Positions 22,192 to 32,020 of a DNA stretch of 34,040 nt are shown here, in pieces. The stretch is from the UHGV virus genome UHGV-0159305, one strand, 5' to 3'. The stretch comes from a virus. Position numbers and translations under genes: made by a program. Position 1 is the stretch's first letter. The number at the start of each line of letters is the position of its first letter. Under the pieces are notes generated by a model that saw only the letters and a program-made list of their open reading frames with translations, did no database searches and had not been told where the DNA came from.

Positions 22192-23346
22192 TCAGGACCA
22201 GAGGCGCCAGGCGGACGATGTCCCGCCGCCCAGCTCGAACGTCAGCAAGCGCGGGAGAGATGACTCCCCGGACGCGTTCTGGAACCAAGAGCTGCCCGGG
22301 TCCATCGTCGGTGCGCAAATGATCTGCCGGCTGTCACCGACCGTCTGCACGGAGAAGGAATGCCAGTGCCCGTGCAGGAGCACGCGGGCGTCCTGCATGC
22401 CCGCCACGCAGCCGAACGCCTGCCCGCGGAACCAATCCGCGACCCGGCTCTTCGAGCCGGCGGCATGCCCGTGAGTGACGCCCATGACCGTCCCGTCAGC
22501 GGCGCGCACGGTCAGCGACTCCAAGCGCTTCTCTGGCGTCTCGAACCGGATGTGCTCGTAGCCGGGGCGACCCTCGACGATCTGCTGGATGTTGTCGGCG
22601 ATCAGCAGGCCGTAGTCGTCCCCGGGGAACGAGGCCCGGTTGGAGCGGCCGACGCCGGTGCGGACCTGGCAGTGGTTCGATGGCACAGCCACGTAGGTAA
22701 CCTCGGGGGCGGCGGCAGCCAGCGACCGGAGCGCGTCGGCGAGCAGTGCCTGCGCGGTCCGGATCTGATAGGTGAGCGGTAGGTCATTGGTCTGCGCCTG
22801 CGACACCGTATTGCTGAACCCTTCGGTAGAGTCGCCACAGTCAACGAGGATGACCCGCCGGTACTGGCCGGCCGCATAGTCGGCGACCCGAGCGACGGCG
22901 GCACGGACGCGACGGACCGTCTCCTCGGTGCCGCCAGCCCGGTCGGTCTTCCCGATCTGCAGGTCTGACACAACCACCACAAGCGTTGCCTGGCCGGTCG
23001 GCGTTGCGGGCGCCTTGACCGACTCCGCGAAGATCGGCGTCAGGTCCTCGAACCGTTTCGCCTGCACCTCGCCGCGCTCAATAACACCCGGCTTGTACGT
23101 GATCTTCTCGTATGACCCGTCCTGCAGGCGGACGGTCTTCCCTCGGGCCGTGATGGCTTCTACGGGCACGCCGAAGTACTCGTCGACACCTCCTTTGGCG
23201 GCCTCGCTGCGGCGCTTCAGTGCCTTCCTGTGCCTCCTGACGGCCGCCTCCGAGGTACCGAACTCGTCGGCGATCCCCTGGTTGGTGCGCCGCTGATGCT
23301 GTGGCAGGGCGTCGTTCTCGAGGATTGCCTCGTCAAGGGGAGTCAC
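22192..23346 (-). CDS. calcineurin-like metallophosphoesterase with N-terminal sigma-region-4-like HTH
   Basis: The ORF-track ORF 22192..23574 was trimmed to the GTG at 23346. RBS GAAGGAGGT lies 6 nt upstream, and the start overlaps the NrdH-like gene's stop by GTGA. MPE motifs are VVVSDLQIG, VDCGDSTEGF, VPSNHCQ, THGHAAG and LLHGHWH. The first ~45 aa carry an HTH (QRRTNQGIADEFGTSEAAVRRHRKAL). Confidence 0.6.
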   Translation of the reverse strand: MTPLDEAILENDALPQHQRRTNQGIADEFGTSEAAVRRHRKALKRRSEAAKGGVDEYFGVPVEAITARGKTVRLQDGSYEKITYKPGVIERGEVQAKRFEDLTPIFAESVKAPATPTGQATLVVVVSDLQIGKTDRAGGTEETVRRVRAAVARVADYAAGQYRRVILVDCGDSTEGFSNTVSQAQTNDLPLTYQIRTAQALLADALRSLAAAAPEVTYVAVPSNHCQVRTGVGRSNRASFPGDDYGLLIADNIQQIVEGRPGYEHIRFETPEKRLESLTVRAADGTVMGVTHGHAAGSKSRVADWFRGQAFGCVAGMQDARVLLHGHWHSFSVQTVGDSRQIICAPTMDPGSSWFQNASGESSLPRLLTFELGGGTSSAWRLWS

Positions 23347-24843: not shown

Positions 24844-25514
24844 GAGATCACCGCCATGGGAGTGCCGGTGGTGTCAGCCCGATACTGGTCCCACCCTCCG
24901 GCGTGACCGGTCTTGACGGTCCTGATGACGGACAGGCCGTCCGCCTGTTCGTATCCGATGCCGCCGCCGGCGAGGACGGCGATGGGGGTGTCGTTGCCGA
25001 AGCGGAAAGCCGCGTCCTGCAGCTGTCCCATGAGGCGACCGATTGTGAGGGTGCCGGTCTCCTGGGTGGCGTAGTCGCGGGCTGTAGCACCGCTGCCGGT
25101 GGATCCGAAGCCTCCCGTGCCGCGGTCGGTGTCGTCCTGGACGGCGCCCTTGACAACTTCGATGGCGGGCAGCTTGTGGATGATCAGCTGGCAGATGCGC
25201 TCCCTGGCGGCGACCAGCACCGGCTCCGCGAGGACGGCAACGAGGACCTTCAGGTTGCCTCGGTAGCCGGAGTCAATGACGCCGGCACCGTGCGGAATGA
25301 CTAGCCCCTTCGCGCCGGCCGAGGAACGCAGGACCAGTTCCCCGTAGTAGCCGTCGGGGATGGCGACCCGGATGCCGAGGTCGATCGTGTACACGGCGCC
25401 ACGGCGGACAAGGCAAGTCTGCCCTTCGGGGACGTACAGGTCCAGACCCGCGTCCGTGTCGTGTGCCCTGGTCGGGTCCTGCACGTTCATTGTCTTCTGG
25501 ACGGTGAGCTTCAT
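24840..25514 (-). CDS. dut: dUTPase with ~80-aa C-terminal extension
   Basis: The ORF-track ORF 24840..25535 was trimmed to the ATG at 25514, with GGAAGGAA 5 nt upstream and an ATGA overlap with the upstream gene. dUTPase motifs DAGLDLY, GVIDSGYRG and RGTGGFGSTG are present. About 80 aa follow motif V. Confidence 0.8.
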   Translation of the reverse strand: MKLTVQKTMNVQDPTRAHDTDAGLDLYVPEGQTCLVRRGAVYTIDLGIRVAIPDGYYGELVLRSSAGAKGLVIPHGAGVIDSGYRGNLKVLVAVLAEPVLVAARERICQLIIHKLPAIEVVKGAVQDDTDRGTGGFGSTGSGATARDYATQETGTLTIGRLMGQLQDAAFRFGNDTPIAVLAGGGIGYEQADGLSVIRTVKTGHAGGWDQYRADTTGTPMAVIS

Positions 25515-25879
25515 GAGTGTTCCTTCCTGCTCCATGGGGACCGGTCTCTGCCCCTGGTCAAATCATGCGGCTCGGCGTGGTATTTGTCAATGTCGCCTTC
25601 GTCCCAGGCGAGCGGGGAGTGGGCGCCGGCGGCGACGGCGGTCTCGTGCGCCACCTGCGACCCGTAGTTCACGGGAGCGAGATTGCACTGGTTACGGGAC
25701 CATGCGCACGCGATGAGGAGCCTGTCTTCTTCGGGCACGTACTCGCCGGCCCGGCCTTTCTGGATCGACTTGAGTTTCACTCCGGCCATGTCGGCGATCC
25801 GCTGCTCGGAGTGGCCGATCCACATGAGTGACAGGATCCGCCGCTGCACTCCGATCGGGGTGATGGTACGGAGTTTCAC
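25511..25879 (-). CDS. HTH DNA-binding protein (sigma-70 region-4-like)
   Basis: The ORF-track ORF 25511..25987 overlaps RecT. It was trimmed to the GTG at 25879, which overlaps the RecT stop by GTGA. The segment VQRRILSLMWIGHSEQRIADMAGVKLKSIQKGR resembles the sigma region-4 HTH. The start assignment is uncertain. Confidence 0.4.
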   Translation of the reverse strand: MKLRTITPIGVQRRILSLMWIGHSEQRIADMAGVKLKSIQKGRAGEYVPEEDRLLIACAWSRNQCNLAPVNYGSQVAHETAVAAGAHSPLAWDEGDIDKYHAEPHDLTRGRDRSPWSRKEHS

Positions 25880-27952: not shown

Positions 27953-28213
27953 TCAGCGGGTGGCTGTCGCCTGGTACCGGGGCTGGGCTGCAAGGGCCTC
28001 AGCGTGGCGGAGAGTGGCCTTCCTGCGGTTGCTGGACCGGGTGGCCTTGATGGCGACGGGCAGTCCGATGATCAGGGCCGGGACGGTAGCCGGGCCAACC
28101 CCGCCGGCGAGGAGGCCGGCGACCGCGCCGAGCACGACGACGATCGAGATGGTGGCGACCCAGGTGATCAGGGTGGTGGCTGCCTTGCTGGGGAGCTGGG
28201 TGGCGGCGTTCAT
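27953..28213 (-). CDS. small membrane protein (2 predicted transmembrane helices)
   Basis: The ORF-track ORF 27953..28273 was trimmed to the ATG at 28213 (MNAATQLPSK...), with AAGGAGGAA 4 nt upstream. It is the first gene of the leftward operon. Confidence 0.5.
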   Translation of the reverse strand: MNAATQLPSKAATTLITWVATISIVVVLGAVAGLLAGGVGPATVPALIIGLPVAIKATRSSNRRKATLRHAEALAAQPRYQATATR

Positions 28214-28636
28214 TTGGTTCCTCCTTGGTTGACCTGATGGGATCAATGTACGGCGTGTCGACACACCGGTCAACCCATGTCGCCGTGACGTTGGTCACCG
28301 TGTAGGGAGGTGGGTAGGGGTATCAAAATGAGCCGACCCACCCGGCTCAAAATGAGCCCCAAACCTTATCTAAGAAGATAAACACCCCCCTACCCCCCAC
28401 GACGCGGGTCGGGGGCGCATCCCAGGCCCGACACCCGCCGGCGCCGGCGGCGGACAGCTGTGGACGAGGCACCGCCCCGCACGGGCGGCACCTGCTACTG
28501 TTGACCCGTTGGTTGACAGCTGGCCGGGTTTTCGTTGTGTTCCTACCGGCCAGCCGGGGCCCGGGTTGAGCCACGAAGCTCCCCGGGCCCCCACCAACAG
28601 GCCAACAGGAACACAGCACAGGACAACGGAGAAGAC
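28214..28636. promoter_or_regulatory. divergent control region between the leftward early operon and the rightward replication operon
   Basis: A leftward promoter candidate has -35 TTGACC (28273..28268), a 17-nt spacer and -10 TACATT (28250..28245). The 10-bp perfect palindrome GTGTCGACAC (28255..28264) lies in its spacer. Further elements are the palindrome GTGACgttgGTCAC (28285..28298), direct repeats TCAAAATGAGCC at 28323 and 28347, the AT-rich palindrome TTATCTaagaAGATAA (28366..28381), and tandem TTGACc/TTGACA at 28501 and 28513. Confidence 0.55.
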
Positions 28637-29440
28637 ATGGAGTACTACAACACTCAAGTCATCGGGGCCATCAACATCCGCCCCTACTGGAGAACGCGCG
28701 ACCTCACCGGCGCGGACATCGCCACCCTCACCGCACTCTGCACCTGGTGGAACTGCGAGCGCATCTACCCCTCCAAAGACGCCATCCAGGCCCGCTCCGG
28801 CCAGTCGCGTGCGGCGACCACCCGAGCCCTCGCCCGCCTCACCGAACTCGGCATCATCGAAACCCGCCACACCGCAGGCAACACCAACGAATACGCCATC
28901 CACCTCGACGCTCTCCTCAACCACGACGGCCTCGTAGCAGCAGGCGCCAGCAGCCACGACCGCCTCACCGAACGGCCCCACACCTACAAGCCGCTCACCC
29001 CCGTCGCAGACCGAGTCACCGAAGACGACATCGCACGTGCGCGAGCCAGGCACGACAAGGCTGCAGCCAAGAAGCAGGCGCAGAAAGCGCAGGAAGCCCA
29101 GGAGCGAGCCGAATTCAACAAGGTGTACCCGGGCACCAAGGCGACCATCAGAGACTGGCAGAAAGCCCGACAGCACGCCGAGGCACGGGAAATCACCGAC
29201 GGTGCCAAAGCGTACGCAGACCAGTGCCGCCGCAGGGAAACCCCAACCCGCTACATCCGCACCGCACGCCGCTGGCTCGAAGACCACGACTGGGAGAACT
29301 ACCAACCCACCCAGCCAGCCGACACTACCGACCGACTCGGCAACCCCCACATCAACGACGCCGACCTCGTCAACGCCGAAGCCACCCCTGAACTCATGGC
29401 CAACATCGCAGCCATGTGGGACAACGCAACCAACAACTGA
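28637..29440 (+). CDS. replication initiator / helicase-loader-like protein with winged-helix DNA-binding domain
   Basis: The ORF-track ORF 28535..29440 was trimmed to the ATG at 28637. An N-terminal wHTH-like segment (IATLTALCTWWNCERIYPSKDAIQARSGQSRAATTRALARLTELGIIE) is followed by a charged coiled region. It lies immediately upstream of DnaB. Confidence 0.5.
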   Translation: MEYYNTQVIGAINIRPYWRTRDLTGADIATLTALCTWWNCERIYPSKDAIQARSGQSRAATTRALARLTELGIIETRHTAGNTNEYAIHLDALLNHDGLVAAGASSHDRLTERPHTYKPLTPVADRVTEDDIARARARHDKAAAKKQAQKAQEAQERAEFNKVYPGTKATIRDWQKARQHAEAREITDGAKAYADQCRRRETPTRYIRTARRWLEDHDWENYQPTQPADTTDRLGNPHINDADLVNAEATPELMANIAAMWDNATNN

Positions 29441-29461: not shown

Positions 29462-30715
29462 ATGGAAACCACTACCCTCGAACAGTGCCTCATCGGCTCA
29501 GCCCTCGCCGGCAACGAAGCGCAAACCGACACCACCTGGGCCACCACCCCAGACATGATCGCCAACACTAGGTACGCCACCATCTGGGGAATCATCCGCG
29601 ACCACTGGGCAATGGGCAGAATCCCCACCCCGGCGTCAGTCCTCGCGGAGGTGCGACGCCCGGCCACCGGCGAAGACATCCTCGACTGCGTCCACGCCTC
29701 AGTGAACCCCACAGACGCAGACCACTACGCCCGCCTCGTCCAAGAAGCCTCCGCCAAACGGGACGTCCATGACGTACTCACCCGCGCCGAGCAGCTCCTC
29801 CAGGGCGACTCCACCGCCGCCGAGGTCGCCTCATGGGCGCAGTCTCACATCGGATCCGCCGCCCCCGACGGTGACACCGTCTCCATGCCCTCCCTTGTCG
29901 ACCAGTGGTACACGGCGAGGAAGGCTACCGGTGTCCGCACACCATGGACCGCAATCAACGACATCATCGGCATGCACCGGGACGGCGGCCTCCACGTCAT
30001 CGGTGCCCGACCCGCAGTGGGCAAGACCCTGTACGGCTTGTACCTCGCGTCCTGCGCCGCACGCAATGACAGGCACGTCCTCTACGTATCCATGGAAATG
30101 CCCGCCCGTGAACTCCTGCCTCGACTGCTGTCCCAGGCCACCGGCATCGCACTGAAGTACACGACCAGGGAGGAGCAGGCACCCGCCGACGTCGCTGACA
30201 TCCTCAACCGAGCAGCAGCCCAAGTCGCCGCCATGCCGATCCACATCAGCGACAAGGCCGGCATGTCCGTCGAACAGGTCGCAGCATCGGCCCGCACGCT
30301 CCACCACAAGAAGAAGCTCGGCGCGGTCGTCATCGACCACATGCAGCTCCTCGCCCCGTCCCGCGGTGTGCCCGGCTCCTCGCTCCGAGAGGTAGTCACC
30401 TACCAATCCAGGGCGCTCAAGGAACTGGCCCTCGAACTGGACGTCCCAGTGTTCGCCCTGTCGCAGCTGTCCCGTGCATCCGAGATGAGAGACGACCTCG
30501 CCCCGAAGCTCGCCGACCTCCGCGAGTCAGGCAGCATCGAGCAGGACGCGGACACTGTCACCCTCCTCAGCCTGCCTGTCCGTAACGGCGTCCCCGACCG
30601 GACGCGACTCGCCGTATCCGTAGCCAAGAACAGGCACGGCGCAACCGGCGACGCGGAACTCATCCGCCAGCCCGCCATGGCCGTGCTCGCAGAACCTACC
30701 CGAGAAGGCCACTGA
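29462..30715 (+). CDS. dnaB: DnaB-family replicative helicase
   Basis: 417-aa ORF with Walker A GARPAVGKT, SMEM, VVIDHMQLL, ALSQLSRASE and LRESGSIEQDAD, matching DnaB motifs H1-H4. Confidence 0.85.
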   Translation: METTTLEQCLIGSALAGNEAQTDTTWATTPDMIANTRYATIWGIIRDHWAMGRIPTPASVLAEVRRPATGEDILDCVHASVNPTDADHYARLVQEASAKRDVHDVLTRAEQLLQGDSTAAEVASWAQSHIGSAAPDGDTVSMPSLVDQWYTARKATGVRTPWTAINDIIGMHRDGGLHVIGARPAVGKTLYGLYLASCAARNDRHVLYVSMEMPARELLPRLLSQATGIALKYTTREEQAPADVADILNRAAAQVAAMPIHISDKAGMSVEQVAASARTLHHKKKLGAVVIDHMQLLAPSRGVPGSSLREVVTYQSRALKELALELDVPVFALSQLSRASEMRDDLAPKLADLRESGSIEQDADTVTLLSLPVRNGVPDRTRLAVSVAKNRHGATGDAELIRQPAMAVLAEPTREGH

Positions 30716-31076: not shown

Positions 31077-31083
31077 CCACCAA

Positions 31084-31118
31084 GGATCCCCCGACACCAA
31101 CACGGTGCCGGGGGATCC
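31084..31118 (+). terminator. stem-loop (10-bp stem GGATCCCCCG / CGGGGGATCC, 15-nt loop)
   Basis: Read directly from the sequence, 8 nt after the stop of 30864..31076. Confidence 0.5.
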
Positions 31119-31234
31119 GTCCACCTCCATGCAATCACCGCACCACCCAACAACCGACAGGGACCTTGTACCCAGGTAGACCGGGTGGCCCATTCCCGCG
31201 CCCGCGCCCCGTTGGGGCTATGACACCAAACCCA

Positions 31235-31430
31235 TAGATATCTAGGTAGTAGACAGTAGGCGCCTGTGGATATGTGGACAACCCCGCCTACCGTTGCAAC
31301 CCCAACGCCCACCACCCCACAACCACCTGTGGATAACTCGAGGGGCGCAGTGGATTACCTGTATGCACAACCACTTACCCACAGGTTATCCACAACCAAT
31401 CCACAAGGCTTCCCACCCGGTTACCCACAT
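31235..31430. promoter_or_regulatory. origin-like DnaA-box / iteron cluster, preceded by the AT-rich palindrome TAGATATCTA (31235..31244)
   Basis: Eight 9-mers fall within 165 bp, on both strands. Two are rc TTATCCACA (31328..31336; perfect) and + TTATCCACA (31386..31394; perfect). One is rc TTGTCCACA (31273..31281; the actinobacterial consensus). The 8/9 matches are rc ATATCCACA at 31265 and + TTACCCACA at 31375 and 31421. The 7/9 matches lie at ~31350 and ~31397. Several are extended to the 11-mer TTATCCACAGG. Confidence 0.5.
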
Positions 31431-31567
31431 GACCCAACACACAGGGGAGGGCTAAAGTCCCAGCCCGGGGTCAACCTTCAGACACCAGCAGCCCCCCAAC
31501 CACCCCCCACCCACCAAGGACCTAGACACACCACCCCACCACCCCACCGCCCCACTACCATAGGCGC

Positions 31568-32020
31568 ATGACATGGACCACCAGCGACCGACGGCAACGA
31601 CTCCCAAAAAACTGGAACCAAATCCGAAAACAAATACTGCAAACAACAAACGGAAAATGTGCAGGCCTCGCCGACCCCGGGTGGGGTACCGGGTACTGGG
31701 AGGATGGCCCCGCGGGCACCCCCTATGCCGGCCCCCGGTGGCACCACACCGACTGCACAACACTCGCCACAGATGTGGACCACATCCAACGAGGAGATTT
31801 AAACAGGTCAGGCAACCTCCAACCCCTGTGCCACGCCTGCCATGCCGCCAAGACCACCGCCGAGGTCCGTGCAATACACGCACACAAGACACGCATGCGA
31901 ACACGACCGACACCACAACATCCTTGCGACAAACAACAAAACAAAGCGAAACGAAACGAAAAGCAAAAACGAAACAAAACAAGCGAAACGCAAACCAAAA
32001 ACCGCGAACGCGAAATCTGA
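31568..32020 (+). CDS. HNH endonuclease (C-terminal ~45 aa is low-complexity translation of an A-rich tract)
   Basis: The HNH motif CAG...DVDHIQRGDLNRSGNLQPLCHACHAAKT is present. The reading frame runs on through the (GAAAC)n tract, giving a KQQNKAKRNEKQKRNK.. tail. Confidence 0.7.
   Translation: MTWTTSDRRQRLPKNWNQIRKQILQTTNGKCAGLADPGWGTGYWEDGPAGTPYAGPRWHHTDCTTLATDVDHIQRGDLNRSGNLQPLCHACHAAKTTAEVRAIHAHKTRMRTRPTPQHPCDKQQNKAKRNEKQKRNKTSETQTKNREREI

What the first reader, a model, noticed from the sequence alone, without database searches (positions are those of the whole stretch)
28214..28636. Dense operator-like architecture in the 420-bp divergent early/replication control region
The leftward promoter candidate is TTGACC-17-TACATT. 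Its spacer is filled by a perfect 10-bp palindrome GTGTCGACAC, an operator-in-promoter arrangement. The palindrome is flanked by inverted GGTTGACC/GGTCAACC copies. A second palindrome GTGACgttgGTCAC follows. Then comes an unusually AT-rich ~65 bp block with two 12-bp direct repeats TCAAAATGAGCC (24 bp apart) and the palindrome TTATCTaagaAGATAA. Then come C6-TA-C6 and the tandem GTTGAC/TTGACA motifs 12 bp apart. No repressor gene is recognisable in the window. The binding protein could be one of the unknown small early proteins, one of the two sigma-region-4-like HTH proteins (25511..25879, or the N-terminus of 22192..23346), or a host factor.
Basis: seen in the sequence. Interest (0 to 1): 0.55.

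Follow-up and report, generated by a model that had tools for sequence, protein, structure and literature searches.

The report
Phage replication origin and control region
This 420-bp gap between two back-to-back gene blocks of an uncultured high-GC phage holds the binding sites of the phage's own replication starter protein (most likely its replication origin), two promoters and a folded RNA leader; it is a new, well-resolved example of a known kind of control region, not a new kind.

Summary
Within the window alone, only the 12-nt direct repeat beats chance. About 40 related metagenomic phages show which elements matter.

1. The leftward promoter is conserved. Its spacer is an invariant 16-bp palindrome, more conserved than the promoter hexamers. 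GTGAC-N4-GTCAC is also invariant.

2. The "direct repeats" are two 15-bp dyads (6-3-6), 24 bp apart. They differ between phages but match within each phage. Their sequence type tracks residues 47, 59, 62, 63 and 66 of the winged-helix recognition surface of the adjacent Rep protein (28637-29440). It tracks nothing else in 2.1 kb. The dyads abut an invariant AT-rich block, the least stable 20-mer in the genome. This is most likely a lambda-like, Rep-dependent origin.

3. The TTGAC motifs are not -35 boxes. They lie just after a conserved extended -10 and start a covariation-supported three-helix RNA leader. A loop of that leader pairs with the rep Shine-Dalgarno.

The binder of the invariant palindromes is unknown. 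A conserved DnaA-box array at 31265-31429 is a rival or second origin.

New member of a known kind.

The parts
27953..28213 (-). First gene of the leftward block (86-aa membrane protein). Its ATG is at 28213..28211 and the RBS AGGAGGAA is at 28225..28218.
   Evidence: ORF list. Syntenic homologue found in 21 relatives by tblastn. Weak TauE-like transmembrane hit.
28245..28273 (-). Leftward sigma-70-type promoter: -35 TTGACC at 28273..28268, 17-nt spacer, -10 TACATT at 28250..28245. The start site is inferred near 28238.
   Evidence: Consensus scan. Hexamer identity is 0.87 and 0.92 across 39 relatives, and relatives keep TAGATT, a TAnnnT -10. The start site is not mapped.
28252..28267 (.). Palindrome filling the promoter spacer. 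It reads GGCGTGTCGACACACC here (14 of 16 symmetric) and is a perfect GGCGTGTCGACACGCC in relatives. Candidate operator for a conserved dimeric factor that is not Rep.
   Evidence: Identity 0.97, the highest of any block. Unique in the window. In IMG/VR the 16-mer occurs only in this phage group plus 2 unrelated chance hits.
28285..28298 (.). GTGAC-N4-GTCAC (equivalently GTGA-N6-TCAC), centred about 53 bp upstream of the inferred leftward start site. Second invariant dyad; binder unknown.
   Evidence: Arm identity 0.91 and 0.99 against 0.67 for the spacer. No other perfect copy in the window.
28320..28334 (.). Iteron 1, GTATCA-AAA-TGAGCC. The right arm is cognate and the left arm deviates from the cognate sequence.
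   Evidence: Always 41 nt before the AT block in relatives.
28344..28358 (.). Iteron 2, GGCTCA-AAA-TGAGCC, a perfect 6-3-6 dyad. Inferred Rep dimer site, ending 2 nt from the AT block.
   Evidence: Site type co-varies with the Rep recognition helix.
28360..28398 (.). Invariant block CAAACCTTATCTAAGAAGATAAACA followed by CCCCCCTACCCCCC. The AT-rich part (28361-28384) is the inferred DNA-unwinding element. The role of C6TAC6 (28385-28398) is unknown.
   Evidence: Identity 0.93 and 0.98. 28365-28384 is the least stable 20-mer of the 34-kb genome: -20.4 kcal/mol against a mean of -30.4, sd 2.4.
28399..28492 (.). Variable GC-rich spacer. It holds a semi-conserved CGCCGGnGGCGG near 28440-28456, a window-specific 16-bp GC palindrome at 28435-28450, and a weak DnaA-like box TGTGGACGA at 28459-28467.
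   Evidence: Identity 0.46-0.58, and 0.77 for the semi-conserved block. No consistent fold across relatives. A DnaA-like box with at most 1 mismatch is present in only 13 of 40 loci.
28493..28501 (+). Rightward extended -10 promoter, TGcTACTGT. The start site is inferred near 28508.
   Evidence: G4, T6, A7 and T11 of TGnTAnnnT are invariant in 35 sequences, while the -35 position varies. The start site is not mapped.
28508..28598 (+). Structured rep leader RNA. P1 pairs 28508-28513 with 28593-28598. P2 pairs 28519-28525 with 28548-28554. P3 pairs 28556-28565 with 28582-28591. P3b pairs 28568-28571 with 28578-28581.
   Evidence: RNAalifold. Pair counts: 27 pairs, 99.7% paired, 9 pairs with compensatory changes, 0 of 500 shuffles as good, and the signal collapses when partners are slid. 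One-sided changes are G-U on the plus strand. No Rfam match.
28530..28537 (+). Anti-Shine-Dalgarno segment UUUCGUUG in the loop of P2. It pairs with CAACGGAG at 28624-28631.
   Evidence: Four pairs beside the GUUG/CAAC core are 97.9% paired, against 81.9 +/- 2.2% when partners are shuffled (0 of 5000). C-G/U-A and G-C/U-A swaps occur, as do the core variants GUCG/CGAC and GCUG/CGGC.
28624..28639 (+). CAAC, the rep Shine-Dalgarno GGAG (28628-28631) and the ATG (28637-28639).
28637..29440 (+). rep, a 267-aa winged-helix replication-initiator homologue. Specificity residues are 47 (28775-28777) and 59, 62, 63, 66 within recognition helix 58-70 (28808-28846).
   Evidence: phrog_270 'replication initiation protein', E 1.7e-16. 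HTH_36 hit. Distant homologues are HTH_36, some with DnaD_N. AF2 helices at 47-54 and 58-70 with a wing at 74-88, pLDDT 85-89 in that region. Covariation.
29462..30715 (+). DnaB-type replicative helicase gene, immediately downstream of rep.
   Evidence: DnaB_C and AAA_25 on homologues. blastn matches to annotated DnaB-like helicases.

Best explanation
The gap is the replication and early-transcription control centre of a small, apparently lytic phage of an actinobacterial host. It has four modules.

(1) Origin module (28320-28398). Two 15-bp dyad iterons, 24 bp apart, are bound by dimers of the adjacent Rep protein through its winged-helix recognition helix. They abut an invariant AT-rich block that melts. 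The phage DnaB helicase, encoded next to rep, is then loaded. Divergent transcription on both sides would supply negative supercoiling.

(2) Leftward promoter (28245-28273). Its spacer is an invariant 16-bp palindrome, and a second invariant dyad, GTGA-N6-TCAC, lies upstream. These are sites for a conserved factor other than Rep. A protein sitting on the spacer would block RNA polymerase.

(3) Rightward extended -10 promoter (28493-28501).

(4) A roughly 130-nt rep leader. It folds into a three-helix junction, and one hairpin loop pairs with the rep Shine-Dalgarno, limiting or gating Rep translation.

Shown here: conservation, the Rep-iteron co-variation, and the RNA covariation. Inferred: actual binding, origin firing, repression, start sites, and the direction of the translational effect.

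My estimates for the sub-claims:
- Rep binds the dyads: about 0.9.
- They constitute an origin: about 0.6-0.65.
- The leader structure is real: about 0.85.
- The spacer palindrome is an operator: about 0.6.
For: Rep-iteron coupling:
- Across the 31 loci that give both the iterons and the Rep helix, out of 34 distinct loci, site classes A-D partition exactly with Rep residue 47 and helix residues 59, 62, 63 and 66.
- Normalised mutual information reaches 0.73 for Rep. It stays at or below 0.57 for the nine other flanking proteins that had 16 or more orthologues. HNH and the 500-aa protein reached 0.61 and 0.73 on only 12-13 bimodal sequences and were discounted.
- A 2.1-kb scan shows only two peaks: the iterons and rep codons 44-64. 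The roughly 400 bp between them stays low.
- Leader hairpin variants lying in between assort independently of iteron class. The coupling is therefore functional, not linkage.

Blind test: Rep helix variants were picked first and their contigs fetched afterwards. Familiar helices came with the expected sites, and new helices came with new sites.

Structure: the co-varying residues lie at the N-terminus of helix 2 and on one face (i, i+3, i+4, i+7) of helix 3 in the AF2 model.

Origin reading:
- Rep matches phrog_270, a replication initiation family, and precedes dnaB.
- The sites occur only at -41 and -17 from the invariant AT block.
- That block is the least stable 20-mer of the genome.
- In lambda, two iterons plus the AT-rich tract are the minimal unit that unwinds (PMC7466680).

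Promoters.

Leader.
Against: - No experiment of any kind. The host is unknown and no relative exists in isolated phages or bacterial genomes.
- A positionally conserved array of 6-7 DnaA boxes, next to the least stable 25-40-bp segment of the genome, lies at 31219-31429. It could be the real origin or a second one.
- There are only two iterons and an AT tract of about 24 bp.
- Rep's family assignment rests on one remote-homology library. Structure search finds only generic MarR/IclR/Fur-like winged helices, so Rep could be a regulator.
- The mutual-information statistics are not corrected for phylogeny.
- The palindrome's binder is unidentified.
Confidence: 0.6

Rival explanations
1. Rep is a MarR-like transcription factor and the two dyads are its operator, for autoregulation or an early switch. 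Replication starts elsewhere, for example at the DnaA-box array at 31219-31429 using host DnaA and the phage DnaB.
For: - The fold and sequence searches see only a generic winged helix of the MarR/GntR/IclR kind. One public source names the protein MarR-like.
- Conserved DnaA-box array beside the genome's least stable 25-40-bp segment.
- Diversifying operator/regulator specificity is also typical of phage immunity regions (general knowledge).
Against: - The dyads overlap neither promoter. They lie 45-90 bp upstream of the leftward -35 and about 135-175 bp upstream of the rightward -10.
- They are locked at a fixed distance from an invariant AT-rich block.
- Rep matches a replication-initiation family over residues 29-237, well beyond the HTH. 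Distant homologues hit DnaD_N.
- rep sits directly before dnaB.
Confidence: 0.25
2. One reading: the repeats and palindromes are one operator cluster for a repressor-like factor. Candidates are a small early protein, one of the two sigma-region-4-like HTH proteins, or a host protein.
For: - The spacer palindrome and GTGAC-N4-GTCAC are invariant and need a conserved binder.
- The exonuclease N-terminal HTH is invariant and the 122-aa HTH protein is conserved. Both remain candidates for those two sites.
Against: - For the repeats: their type varies between phages while those candidate proteins do not track it. Rep does.
- A host factor cannot explain four or more site classes in phages that are otherwise 80-90% identical in this region.
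Confidence: 0.05
3. The repeats act as RNA or DNA hairpins: a leftward intrinsic terminator or a small RNA. The hairpin TGAGCCGggtgggtCGGCTCA followed by TTTTGA on the minus strand fits this.
For: Two terminator-like hits on the minus strand at 28349..28329 and 28358..28335. Any pair of dyads can also pair with each other.
Against: - The central A run is a T run in some relatives, and mixed within L003, L004 and L009. The G-run spacer is a C run in others. So no strand or U-tract is conserved.
- RNA hairpins give no reason for the two copies to stay alike within a genome while diverging between genomes.
- No conserved leftward promoter lies upstream.
Confidence: 0.03
4. The structured element at 28508-28598 works as single-stranded DNA, for example a priming or primosome-assembly signal beside the origin, rather than as an mRNA leader.
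For: It lies about 110 bp from the AT block. G-T pairs are tolerated in DNA hairpins. No transcript data exist.
Against: - It begins 6-7 nt after a conserved TGnTAnnnT.
- Its hairpin loop co-varies with the rep Shine-Dalgarno region. That only makes sense in mRNA.
Confidence: 0.07

Closest known systems
Lambdoid phage origin (ori-lambda) with O protein
   Same: - Repeated initiator sites, each an imperfect or perfect inverted repeat, next to an AT-rich tract.
- Two iterons plus the AT tract are the minimal unwinding unit, and negative supercoiling is needed (PMC7466680).
- The initiator's N-terminal DNA-binding part and the iterons are type-specific between related phages (my recollection of the classical lambda/phi80/82/P22 comparisons, not checked here).
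- The initiator gene is followed by the gene for the helicase-delivery function.
   Different: - The origin lies upstream of rep in an intergenic gap between divergent promoters, not inside the initiator gene.
- Two (rarely three) 15-bp sites, not four 19-bp sites.
- Rep is an HTH_36-type winged helix with only a marginal match to an O-like family (phrog_678, E 0.007).
- The phage brings its own DnaB instead of a P-type loader.
PLE satellite RepA_N and ori modules of Vibrio cholerae
   Same: The DNA-binding N-terminal domain of the initiator and the semi-palindromic iterons of an intergenic origin co-vary as a swappable module while the C-terminal domain stays conserved. Cognate pairs are required for replication (PMC8263062).
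   Different: - A different protein family (RepA_N) and roughly 30-bp iterons in three copies.
- Whole-domain swaps there. Here specificity mostly changes by a few residues on one helix face; class D replaces most of the helix.
- Diversification there is driven by a known phage nuclease that targets the origin. No such pressure is known here.
Iteron plasmid origins (P1 oriR, F, R6K, pPS10, RK2)
   Same: A winged-helix Rep, repeated sites, an AT-rich unwinding element, and rep next to the origin (review PMC4980987, listed but not read; otherwise my own knowledge).
   Different: - Plasmid iterons are directly repeated asymmetric sites bound by Rep monomers, with a separate inverted repeat at the rep promoter for dimer autorepression. 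Here the sites are themselves dyads and none overlaps the rep promoter.
- Adjacent DnaA boxes are not conserved here.
Pseudoknot or long-range control of replication-initiator translation (IncI-alpha/IncB repZ/repA leaders)
   Same: A hairpin loop in the leader of a replication-initiator mRNA pairs with sequence at the ribosome-binding site and so sets how much Rep is made (my recollection of the ColIb-P9 and pMU720 work, not checked here).
   Different: - In those plasmids the pseudoknot activates translation and is countered by an antisense RNA and a leader peptide.
- Here the loop pairs with the Shine-Dalgarno itself, which suggests inhibition. No antisense promoter or leader peptide was seen.
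- No sequence or Rfam relationship.
Operator placed between the -35 and -10 hexamers (classical steric repression of a sigma-70 promoter)
   Same: A perfect dyad fills the 17-nt spacer of a consensus-like promoter and is more conserved than the hexamers.
   Different: No repressor is identified. There is a single copy only, unlike the multi-operator OR/OL arrays or the dispersed stoperators of cluster A mycobacteriophages.

Membership tests
Lambda-type iteron origin | Two or more repeated initiator-binding sites with internal dyad symmetry | tested here: met
   Two 6-3-6 dyads 24 bp apart, three in L006 and L075.
Lambda-type iteron origin | AT-rich, easily melted tract directly beside the proximal iteron | tested here: met
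   The AT tract 28361-28384 starts 2 nt after iteron 2 and contains the genome's least stable 20-mer. It is invariant in relatives.
Lambda-type iteron origin | Iteron sequence specific to the DNA-binding domain of the cognate initiator | tested here: met
   Exact partition of site class with Rep residues 47, 59, 62, 63 and 66. Mutual-information peaks only at the iterons and rep codons 44-64. Blind test on new helix variants agrees.
Lambda-type iteron origin | Origin located inside the initiator gene | tested here: not met
   The sites lie about 280-320 bp upstream of the rep start codon. No further copy occurs in rep or anywhere in the window.
Lambda-type iteron origin | Initiator homologous to lambda O | tested here: inconclusive
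   Only phrog_678 'replication initiation O-like' at E 0.007. The best hit is phrog_270 at E 1.7e-16. The only Pfam hits were below threshold: HTH_36, MarR_2, HTH_IclR.
Lambda-type iteron origin | Fragment supports initiator-dependent replication | not testable with these tools
   Needs a host and a replication assay.
Iteron-plasmid origin (Rep winged-helix family) | Asymmetric direct repeats bound by Rep monomers, plus an inverted repeat at the rep promoter | tested here: not met
   The units are symmetric, and their orientation (AAA or TTT centre) flips freely between relatives. No Rep-type site lies at the rightward promoter.
Iteron-plasmid origin (Rep winged-helix family) | DnaA box(es) adjoining the iterons or AT tract | tested here: not met
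   A box with at most 1 mismatch at 28459-28467 occurs in only 13 of 40 loci, and is perfect in 3.
Phage immunity region (repressor with OR/OL-type operators) | Operators overlap promoter hexamers or the spacer | tested here: met
   True for the 16-bp palindrome in the leftward spacer. Not true for the iterons.
Phage immunity region (repressor with OR/OL-type operators) | A recognisable repressor gene, and usually an integrase, nearby | tested here: not met
   No CI/Cro-like, integrase or other repressor family in Pfam, PHROG or NCBIfam scans of the ORFs at 21.1-33.6 kb. No prophage copy in 185,579 bacterial and archaeal species genomes.
Stoperator-type dispersed repressor sites (cluster A mycobacteriophages) | Many copies of one asymmetric site spread over the genome | tested here: not met
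   Each motif occurs only in this gap.
CRP/FNR-type site (for GTGA-N6-TCAC) | TGTGA-N6-TCACA dyad centred near -41.5 or -61.5 | tested here: inconclusive
   The core GTGA/TCAC is invariant, but the flanking T and A are G and G. The centre is about -53 from an unmapped start site. The resemblance comes from memory only.
Known RNA families (Rfam 15) | Match to a curated covariance model | tested here: not met
   No hit at gathering score in the window. Only noise (E 0.19 or worse) at the leader.
DnaA-dependent oriC-like origin (for the element at 31219-31429, outside the finding) | Cluster of DnaA boxes next to an AT-rich tract | tested here: met
   All 3 perfect boxes and 3 of the 9 one-mismatch boxes of the genome fall in 165 bp. 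Positions are conserved in 19 loci. They are adjacent to the least stable 25-40-bp segment. Function is untested.

The most novel reading that the evidence does not exclude
A population of near-identical lytic phages maintains at least six mutually orthogonal Rep/origin specificities, generated by a handful of substitutions on one helix face with matching changes in both iterons. This could reflect an ongoing conflict over the origin. Candidates are a satellite or competing phage that hijacks Rep, or a host or rival nuclease that targets the iterons, as Odn does to PLE. In addition, the phage may run two origins: this Rep-dependent one and a host-DnaA-dependent one at 31.2-31.4 kb. Rep supply would be gated by a new pseudoknotted leader RNA.
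Probability: 0.2. Interest if true: 0.7.

Novelty: new member of a known kind. Interest (0 to 1): 0.5.

Why it matters
- Origins of actinobacterial phages are hardly mapped. This one can be pinned to about 80 bp, and its initiator named, from sequence comparison alone.
- The roughly 40 natural Rep/iteron pairs amount to a ready-made specificity table for a winged-helix protein. K or R at residue 47 goes with G at arm position 2, and W goes with T. R or K at residue 59 goes with C at arm position 4. The table can be tested directly by EMSA and used to build orthogonal replicons for high-GC Gram-positive hosts.
- The leader is a compact, covariation-supported RNA motif with no Rfam family. It appears to control translation of a replication initiator.
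- The invariant promoter-spacer palindrome marks a still unidentified regulator common to the whole phage group.

Tried and rejected
- DNA similarity to isolated phages: megablast found nothing. Sensitive blastn found only 50-140-nt dnaB fragments. tblastn with Rep found nothing. No annotated relative could be used. Microbacterium phage Pickles13 has a different layout.
- tRNA or attP idea for the AT-rich block: no tRNA genes, no integrase, no prophage copies.
- Rfam: nothing.
- Dispersed-operator idea: each motif is single-locus.
- Host-regulon idea for the 16-bp palindrome: in IMG/VR it occurs only in this phage group plus two unrelated coding-region hits.
- Conserved hairpin in the variable GC spacer 28399-28492: folds differ from phage to phage.
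- Inverted repeat GGTGGGTAGGGG/CCCCTACCCCCC enclosing the origin module (I7): the G-rich arm is poorly conserved and absent in some relatives.
- DnaA box within the gap: not conserved.
- Other candidate iteron binders: twelve flanking proteins and the exonuclease HTH show no class-specific residues in a DNA-binding region.
- Structure search with the AF2 model: only generic winged helices at E of about 0.01 or worse. Overall pLDDT is 56, so the C-terminal half is uninformative.
- PDB sequence search: one marginal GntR/FadR-like hit.
- GTYRAC enrichment, 5 copies in the gap: partly explained by TTGAC-like promoter and leader sequences. Left unexplained.
- One failed structure job and a few script errors had no bearing on the results.
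Full report
**Context**

The window is 34,040 bp at about 65% GC and looks like a complete small siphovirus-type genome.
- The plus strand carries the terminase small and large subunits and a long run of large ORFs to about 21 kb that I did not scan. I take these to be the capsid and tail genes.
- A leftward block runs from 28213 down to about 21.1 kb. It encodes a membrane protein, small unknowns, RecT, a 122-aa HTH protein, dUTPase, a RusA-like resolvase, SSB, a thioredoxin-like protein and an exonuclease with an N-terminal HTH.
- A rightward block starts at 28637. It encodes a replication-initiator homologue (Rep), DnaB, a small membrane protein, HNH and a 500-aa unknown.
- The finding (28214-28636) is exactly the gap from which the two blocks diverge.
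- No isolated phage resembles the window at DNA level, and Rep has no tblastn match there. The large terminase is 44-45% identical to those of Microbacterium and Bifidobacterium phages.
- Rep is common in metagenomes: 297 homologues, with the best 120 at 82% identity or above. Sources call it hypothetical or MarR-like.
- No relative exists in 185,579 bacterial and archaeal species genomes, and no integrase or repressor family was found. The phage is probably lytic and its host is unknown.

**Checking the observation**

All listed motifs are present. Simulations of the 423-nt region show that a 10-bp palindrome (42%), a 5-N4-5 dyad (50%) and a 6-N4-6 dyad (16%) are unremarkable. A 12-nt direct repeat within 60 nt is rare, at 0.75%. 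The in-window case for a "dense operator architecture" is therefore weak except for the repeat. None of the motifs recurs elsewhere in the genome.

**Comparative data**

I collected 22 IMG/VR loci, 31 metagenome loci and 9 loci fetched through chosen Rep variants. All are syntenic. This gave 39 distinct copies of the gap.

Mean pairwise identity by block:

| Block | Identity |
|---|---|
| Leftward -10 | 0.92 |
| Spacer palindrome | 0.97 |
| Leftward -35 | 0.87 |
| GTGAC arm / GTCAC arm | 0.91 / 0.99 |
| N4 between the arms | 0.67 |
| Iterons | 0.55 |
| AT block | 0.93 |
| C6TAC6 | 0.98 |
| Variable spacers | 0.46-0.58 |
| Extended -10 | 0.76 |
| Leader | 0.87 |

**Leftward promoter and invariant dyads**

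TTGACC-17-TACATT is the only intergenic consensus promoter pointing into the left block. In relatives the spacer is the perfect 16-mer GGCGTGTCGACACGCC; the window has one G-to-A change.

GTGAC-N4-GTCAC behaves the same way, with fixed arms and a free centre. Because these sites never vary while Rep's recognition helix does, Rep is not their binder. Two conserved candidates are the invariant N-terminal HTH of the exonuclease and the 122-aa HTH protein. A host protein is also possible.

In IMG/VR the 16-mer is confined to this phage group, apart from two chance hits. The GTGA-N6-TCAC core resembles CRP/FNR sites. That is only a recollection and the flanks do not fit.

**The repeats are Rep sites**

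In relatives the repeat region is the least conserved part of the gap, yet within each phage the two copies match. Each unit is a 15-bp dyad of 6-3-6 form. I call the classes:
- A: GGCTCA-AAA-TGAGCC
- B: GTMTCA-AAR-TGAGAC
- C: GTGCCA-AAG-TGGCAC and GTGCAA-AAA-YTGCAC variants
- D: GGAACA-AMN-GTTCC

The units are always 24 bp apart, centre to centre. They always start 41 and 17 nt before the invariant AT block and are found nowhere else. The A/T centre can be AAA or TTT, and the inter-unit spacer can be a G run or a C run. Orientation is therefore irrelevant, which argues for a symmetric protein site and against a terminator.

I tested which protein follows the classes.
- Among the flanking proteins, only Rep has class-specific columns clustered in a DNA-binding region. 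Normalised mutual information reaches 0.73, against 0.57 or less for the nine others that had 16 or more orthologues. HNH and the 500-aa protein scored 0.61 and 0.73 on only 12-13 bimodal sequences and were discounted.
- Class A goes with K47 and SRA-T/V-TR. Class B goes with W47 and SR(P/A)TVAR. Class C goes with W47 and SR(R/K)TVA(R/N). Class D goes with Q47 and DLTDRGVRK.
- A column-by-column scan of 2.1 kb in 29 loci shows just two peaks: the iterons themselves and rep codons 44-64. The 400 bp between them stays low.
- The two leader-hairpin variants located in that interval occur in classes A, C and D alike. Recombination has therefore separated neighbours, but not the iteron/helix pair.
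- In the AF2 model the wHTH region is confident (pLDDT 85-89, against 56 overall). Residue 47 starts helix 2, and residues 59, 62, 63 and 66 form one face of helix 3, followed by a beta wing. A marginal alignment to a GntR/FadR-type wHTH places them at positions that, as I recall, contact bases in FadR.

As a blind test I tabulated helix variants among 120 homologues and only then fetched their contigs.
- K47/SRPTTTR came with class A sites.
- W47/SRATIAR came with GTCTCA sites.
- W47/SRKTVANSL came with GTGCAA/CTGCAC sites.
- The new helices R47/SRRTISNSI, L47/SRRTINHSL and R47/SRPTVAR came with new sites: GGGCAA-GAA-CTGCCC, GTGCAA-AAA-TTGCAC and GGATCA-AAA-TGAGCC.
- Tentative rules follow. 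K or R at 47 goes with G at arm position 2, and W goes with T. R or K at 59 goes with C at arm position 4.

**Why an origin**
- Rep matches phrog_270, "replication initiation protein", at E 1.7e-16 over residues 29-237. Its distant homologues are HTH_36 proteins, some with DnaD_N. rep is followed at once by dnaB.
- The sites overlap neither promoter. They are locked to an invariant AT-rich block that contains the least stable 20-mer of the genome.
- In lambda, iterons are imperfect inverted repeats. Two iterons plus the AT tract suffice for unwinding, and negative supercoiling is required (PMC7466680). Divergent promoters on both sides would provide that supercoiling; this step is my inference.
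- The co-varying N-terminal domain and origin module has an experimentally proven parallel in PLE satellites (PMC8263062).

**The main caveat**

Outside the finding, the 490-bp non-coding stretch 31077-31567 contains three features.
- A perfect 10-bp-stem hairpin.
- The least stable 25-40-bp segment of the genome.
- Six to seven DnaA boxes in conserved positions: three on the minus strand, then three or four on the plus strand.

This oriC-like element could be a second origin, the main origin, a DnaA sink, or a control element for the late genes. It is why I put the origin reading of the iterons at only about 0.6. Within the gap itself, a DnaA-like box is not conserved.

**Rightward promoter and leader**

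Upstream of the TTGAC motifs lies TGnTAnnnT (28493-28501). Its G, T, A and T are invariant in 35 sequences and there is no conserved -35, as in extended -10 promoters.

Six to seven nucleotides later the sequence folds into P1, P2, P3 and P3b.
- On 35 sequences, 27 pairs are 99.7% paired and 9 pairs carry compensatory changes.
- No shuffle of 500 reaches this, and sliding the partners destroys the signal.
- Single-sided changes are G-U on the plus strand, so the element acts as plus-sense RNA.

The loop of P2 is invariant in GUUGUGUUCC.
- Its 5' part pairs with the sequence running into the rep Shine-Dalgarno. In the window, UUUCGUUG (28530-28537) pairs with CAACGGAG (28624-28631).
- Across 35 sequences the four pairs beside the GUUG/CAAC core are 97.9% paired, against 81.9% in shuffles (0 of 5000). 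They include C-G/U-A and G-C/U-A exchanges and two compensated core variants.
- Single-sequence folding also prefers a loop-to-tail helix.
- The simplest reading is a pseudoknot, or an alternative helix, that masks the ribosome-binding site and limits Rep synthesis. What relieves it is unknown.
- No Rfam family matches.

**Verdict**

The region is real and functional, but it is a composite rather than an operator cluster. It consists of a Rep-specific iteron/AT-rich module that is probably the origin, a leftward promoter with an invariant candidate operator, an extended -10 rightward promoter, and a structured rep leader with an anti-Shine-Dalgarno loop. Each module has close conceptual precedents, so this is a new member of a known kind. 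Its value lies in the unusually clean natural specificity series and in a new RNA motif.

Noticed in passing
window 31219-31429, within the non-coding stretch 31077-31567: An oriC-like element. The least stable 25-40-bp segment of the genome (..CATAGATATCTAGGTAGTAGACAGTA) is followed by 6-7 DnaA boxes: minus strand at 31265, 31273 and 31328, plus strand at 31375, 31386 and 31421. All three perfect TTRTCCACA matches of the genome are here, and the positions are conserved in 19 related loci. It could be a second origin, the main origin, a DnaA sink, or late-gene control.
   Followed up: partly
window 31085-31118: Perfect 10-bp-stem hairpin, GGATCCCCCG(14 nt)CGGGGGATCC, just after the small membrane-protein gene. 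It is conserved with compensatory changes in relatives (for example GGATCCTCCG..CGGAGGATCC in L017). It is likely a terminator or attenuator between the early genes (rep, dnaB) and the downstream genes.
   Followed up: partly
window 31266-31571: The 101-aa ORF listed here has no PHROG hit. It overlaps the DnaA-box array and a C-rich tract that carries large indels in relatives. It is probably not a gene.
   Followed up: partly
window 28385-28398: CCCCCCTACCCCCC is almost invariant (identity 0.98) in all relatives, yet no function can be assigned. The partly complementary G-rich tract at 28309-28320 is not conserved.
   Followed up: partly
It is specific to this window. The overlapping CGCCGGnGGCGG is semi-conserved (identity 0.77) and lies about 60 bp upstream of the inferred rightward start site.
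   Followed up: partly
window 28320-28334; loci L001, L007, L010: Iteron 1 of several class A phages is a hybrid. The right arm is cognate (TGAGCC), but the left arm resembles class B/C half-sites (GTATCA, GTGTCA). It may be a weaker site or a trace of specificity switching.
   Followed up: no
loci L006 (3650-3715) and L075 (about 820-912): Some relatives carry three iterons instead of two. The extra copy lies 22 bp upstream in L006, and the extra copy in L075 is degenerate. This suggests array growth by duplication.
   Followed up: no
window 28228, 28257, 28269, 28500, 28512: Five GTYRAC hexamers fall in the 423-bp gap, against about 0.6 expected from the genome-wide density of 49 in 34 kb. 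This is partly explained by TTGAC-like promoter and leader sequence and is otherwise unexplained.
   Followed up: partly
window 22192-23346, minus strand (residues 1-48): The exonuclease carries an N-terminal HTH (..QHQRRTNQGIADEFGTSEAAVRRHRKALKRR) that is nearly invariant in 11 relatives of all iteron classes. It is a candidate binder for the invariant palindromes.
   Followed up: partly
whole window: The genome appears to be two transcription units. They diverge at 28214-28636 and converge near 21.0-21.1 kb. An HNH gene (31568-32020) lies about 2 kb before the window's right end, with the terminase genes at the left end (132-2233). No relative of Rep was found in 185,579 bacterial and archaeal species genomes.
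   Followed up: partly
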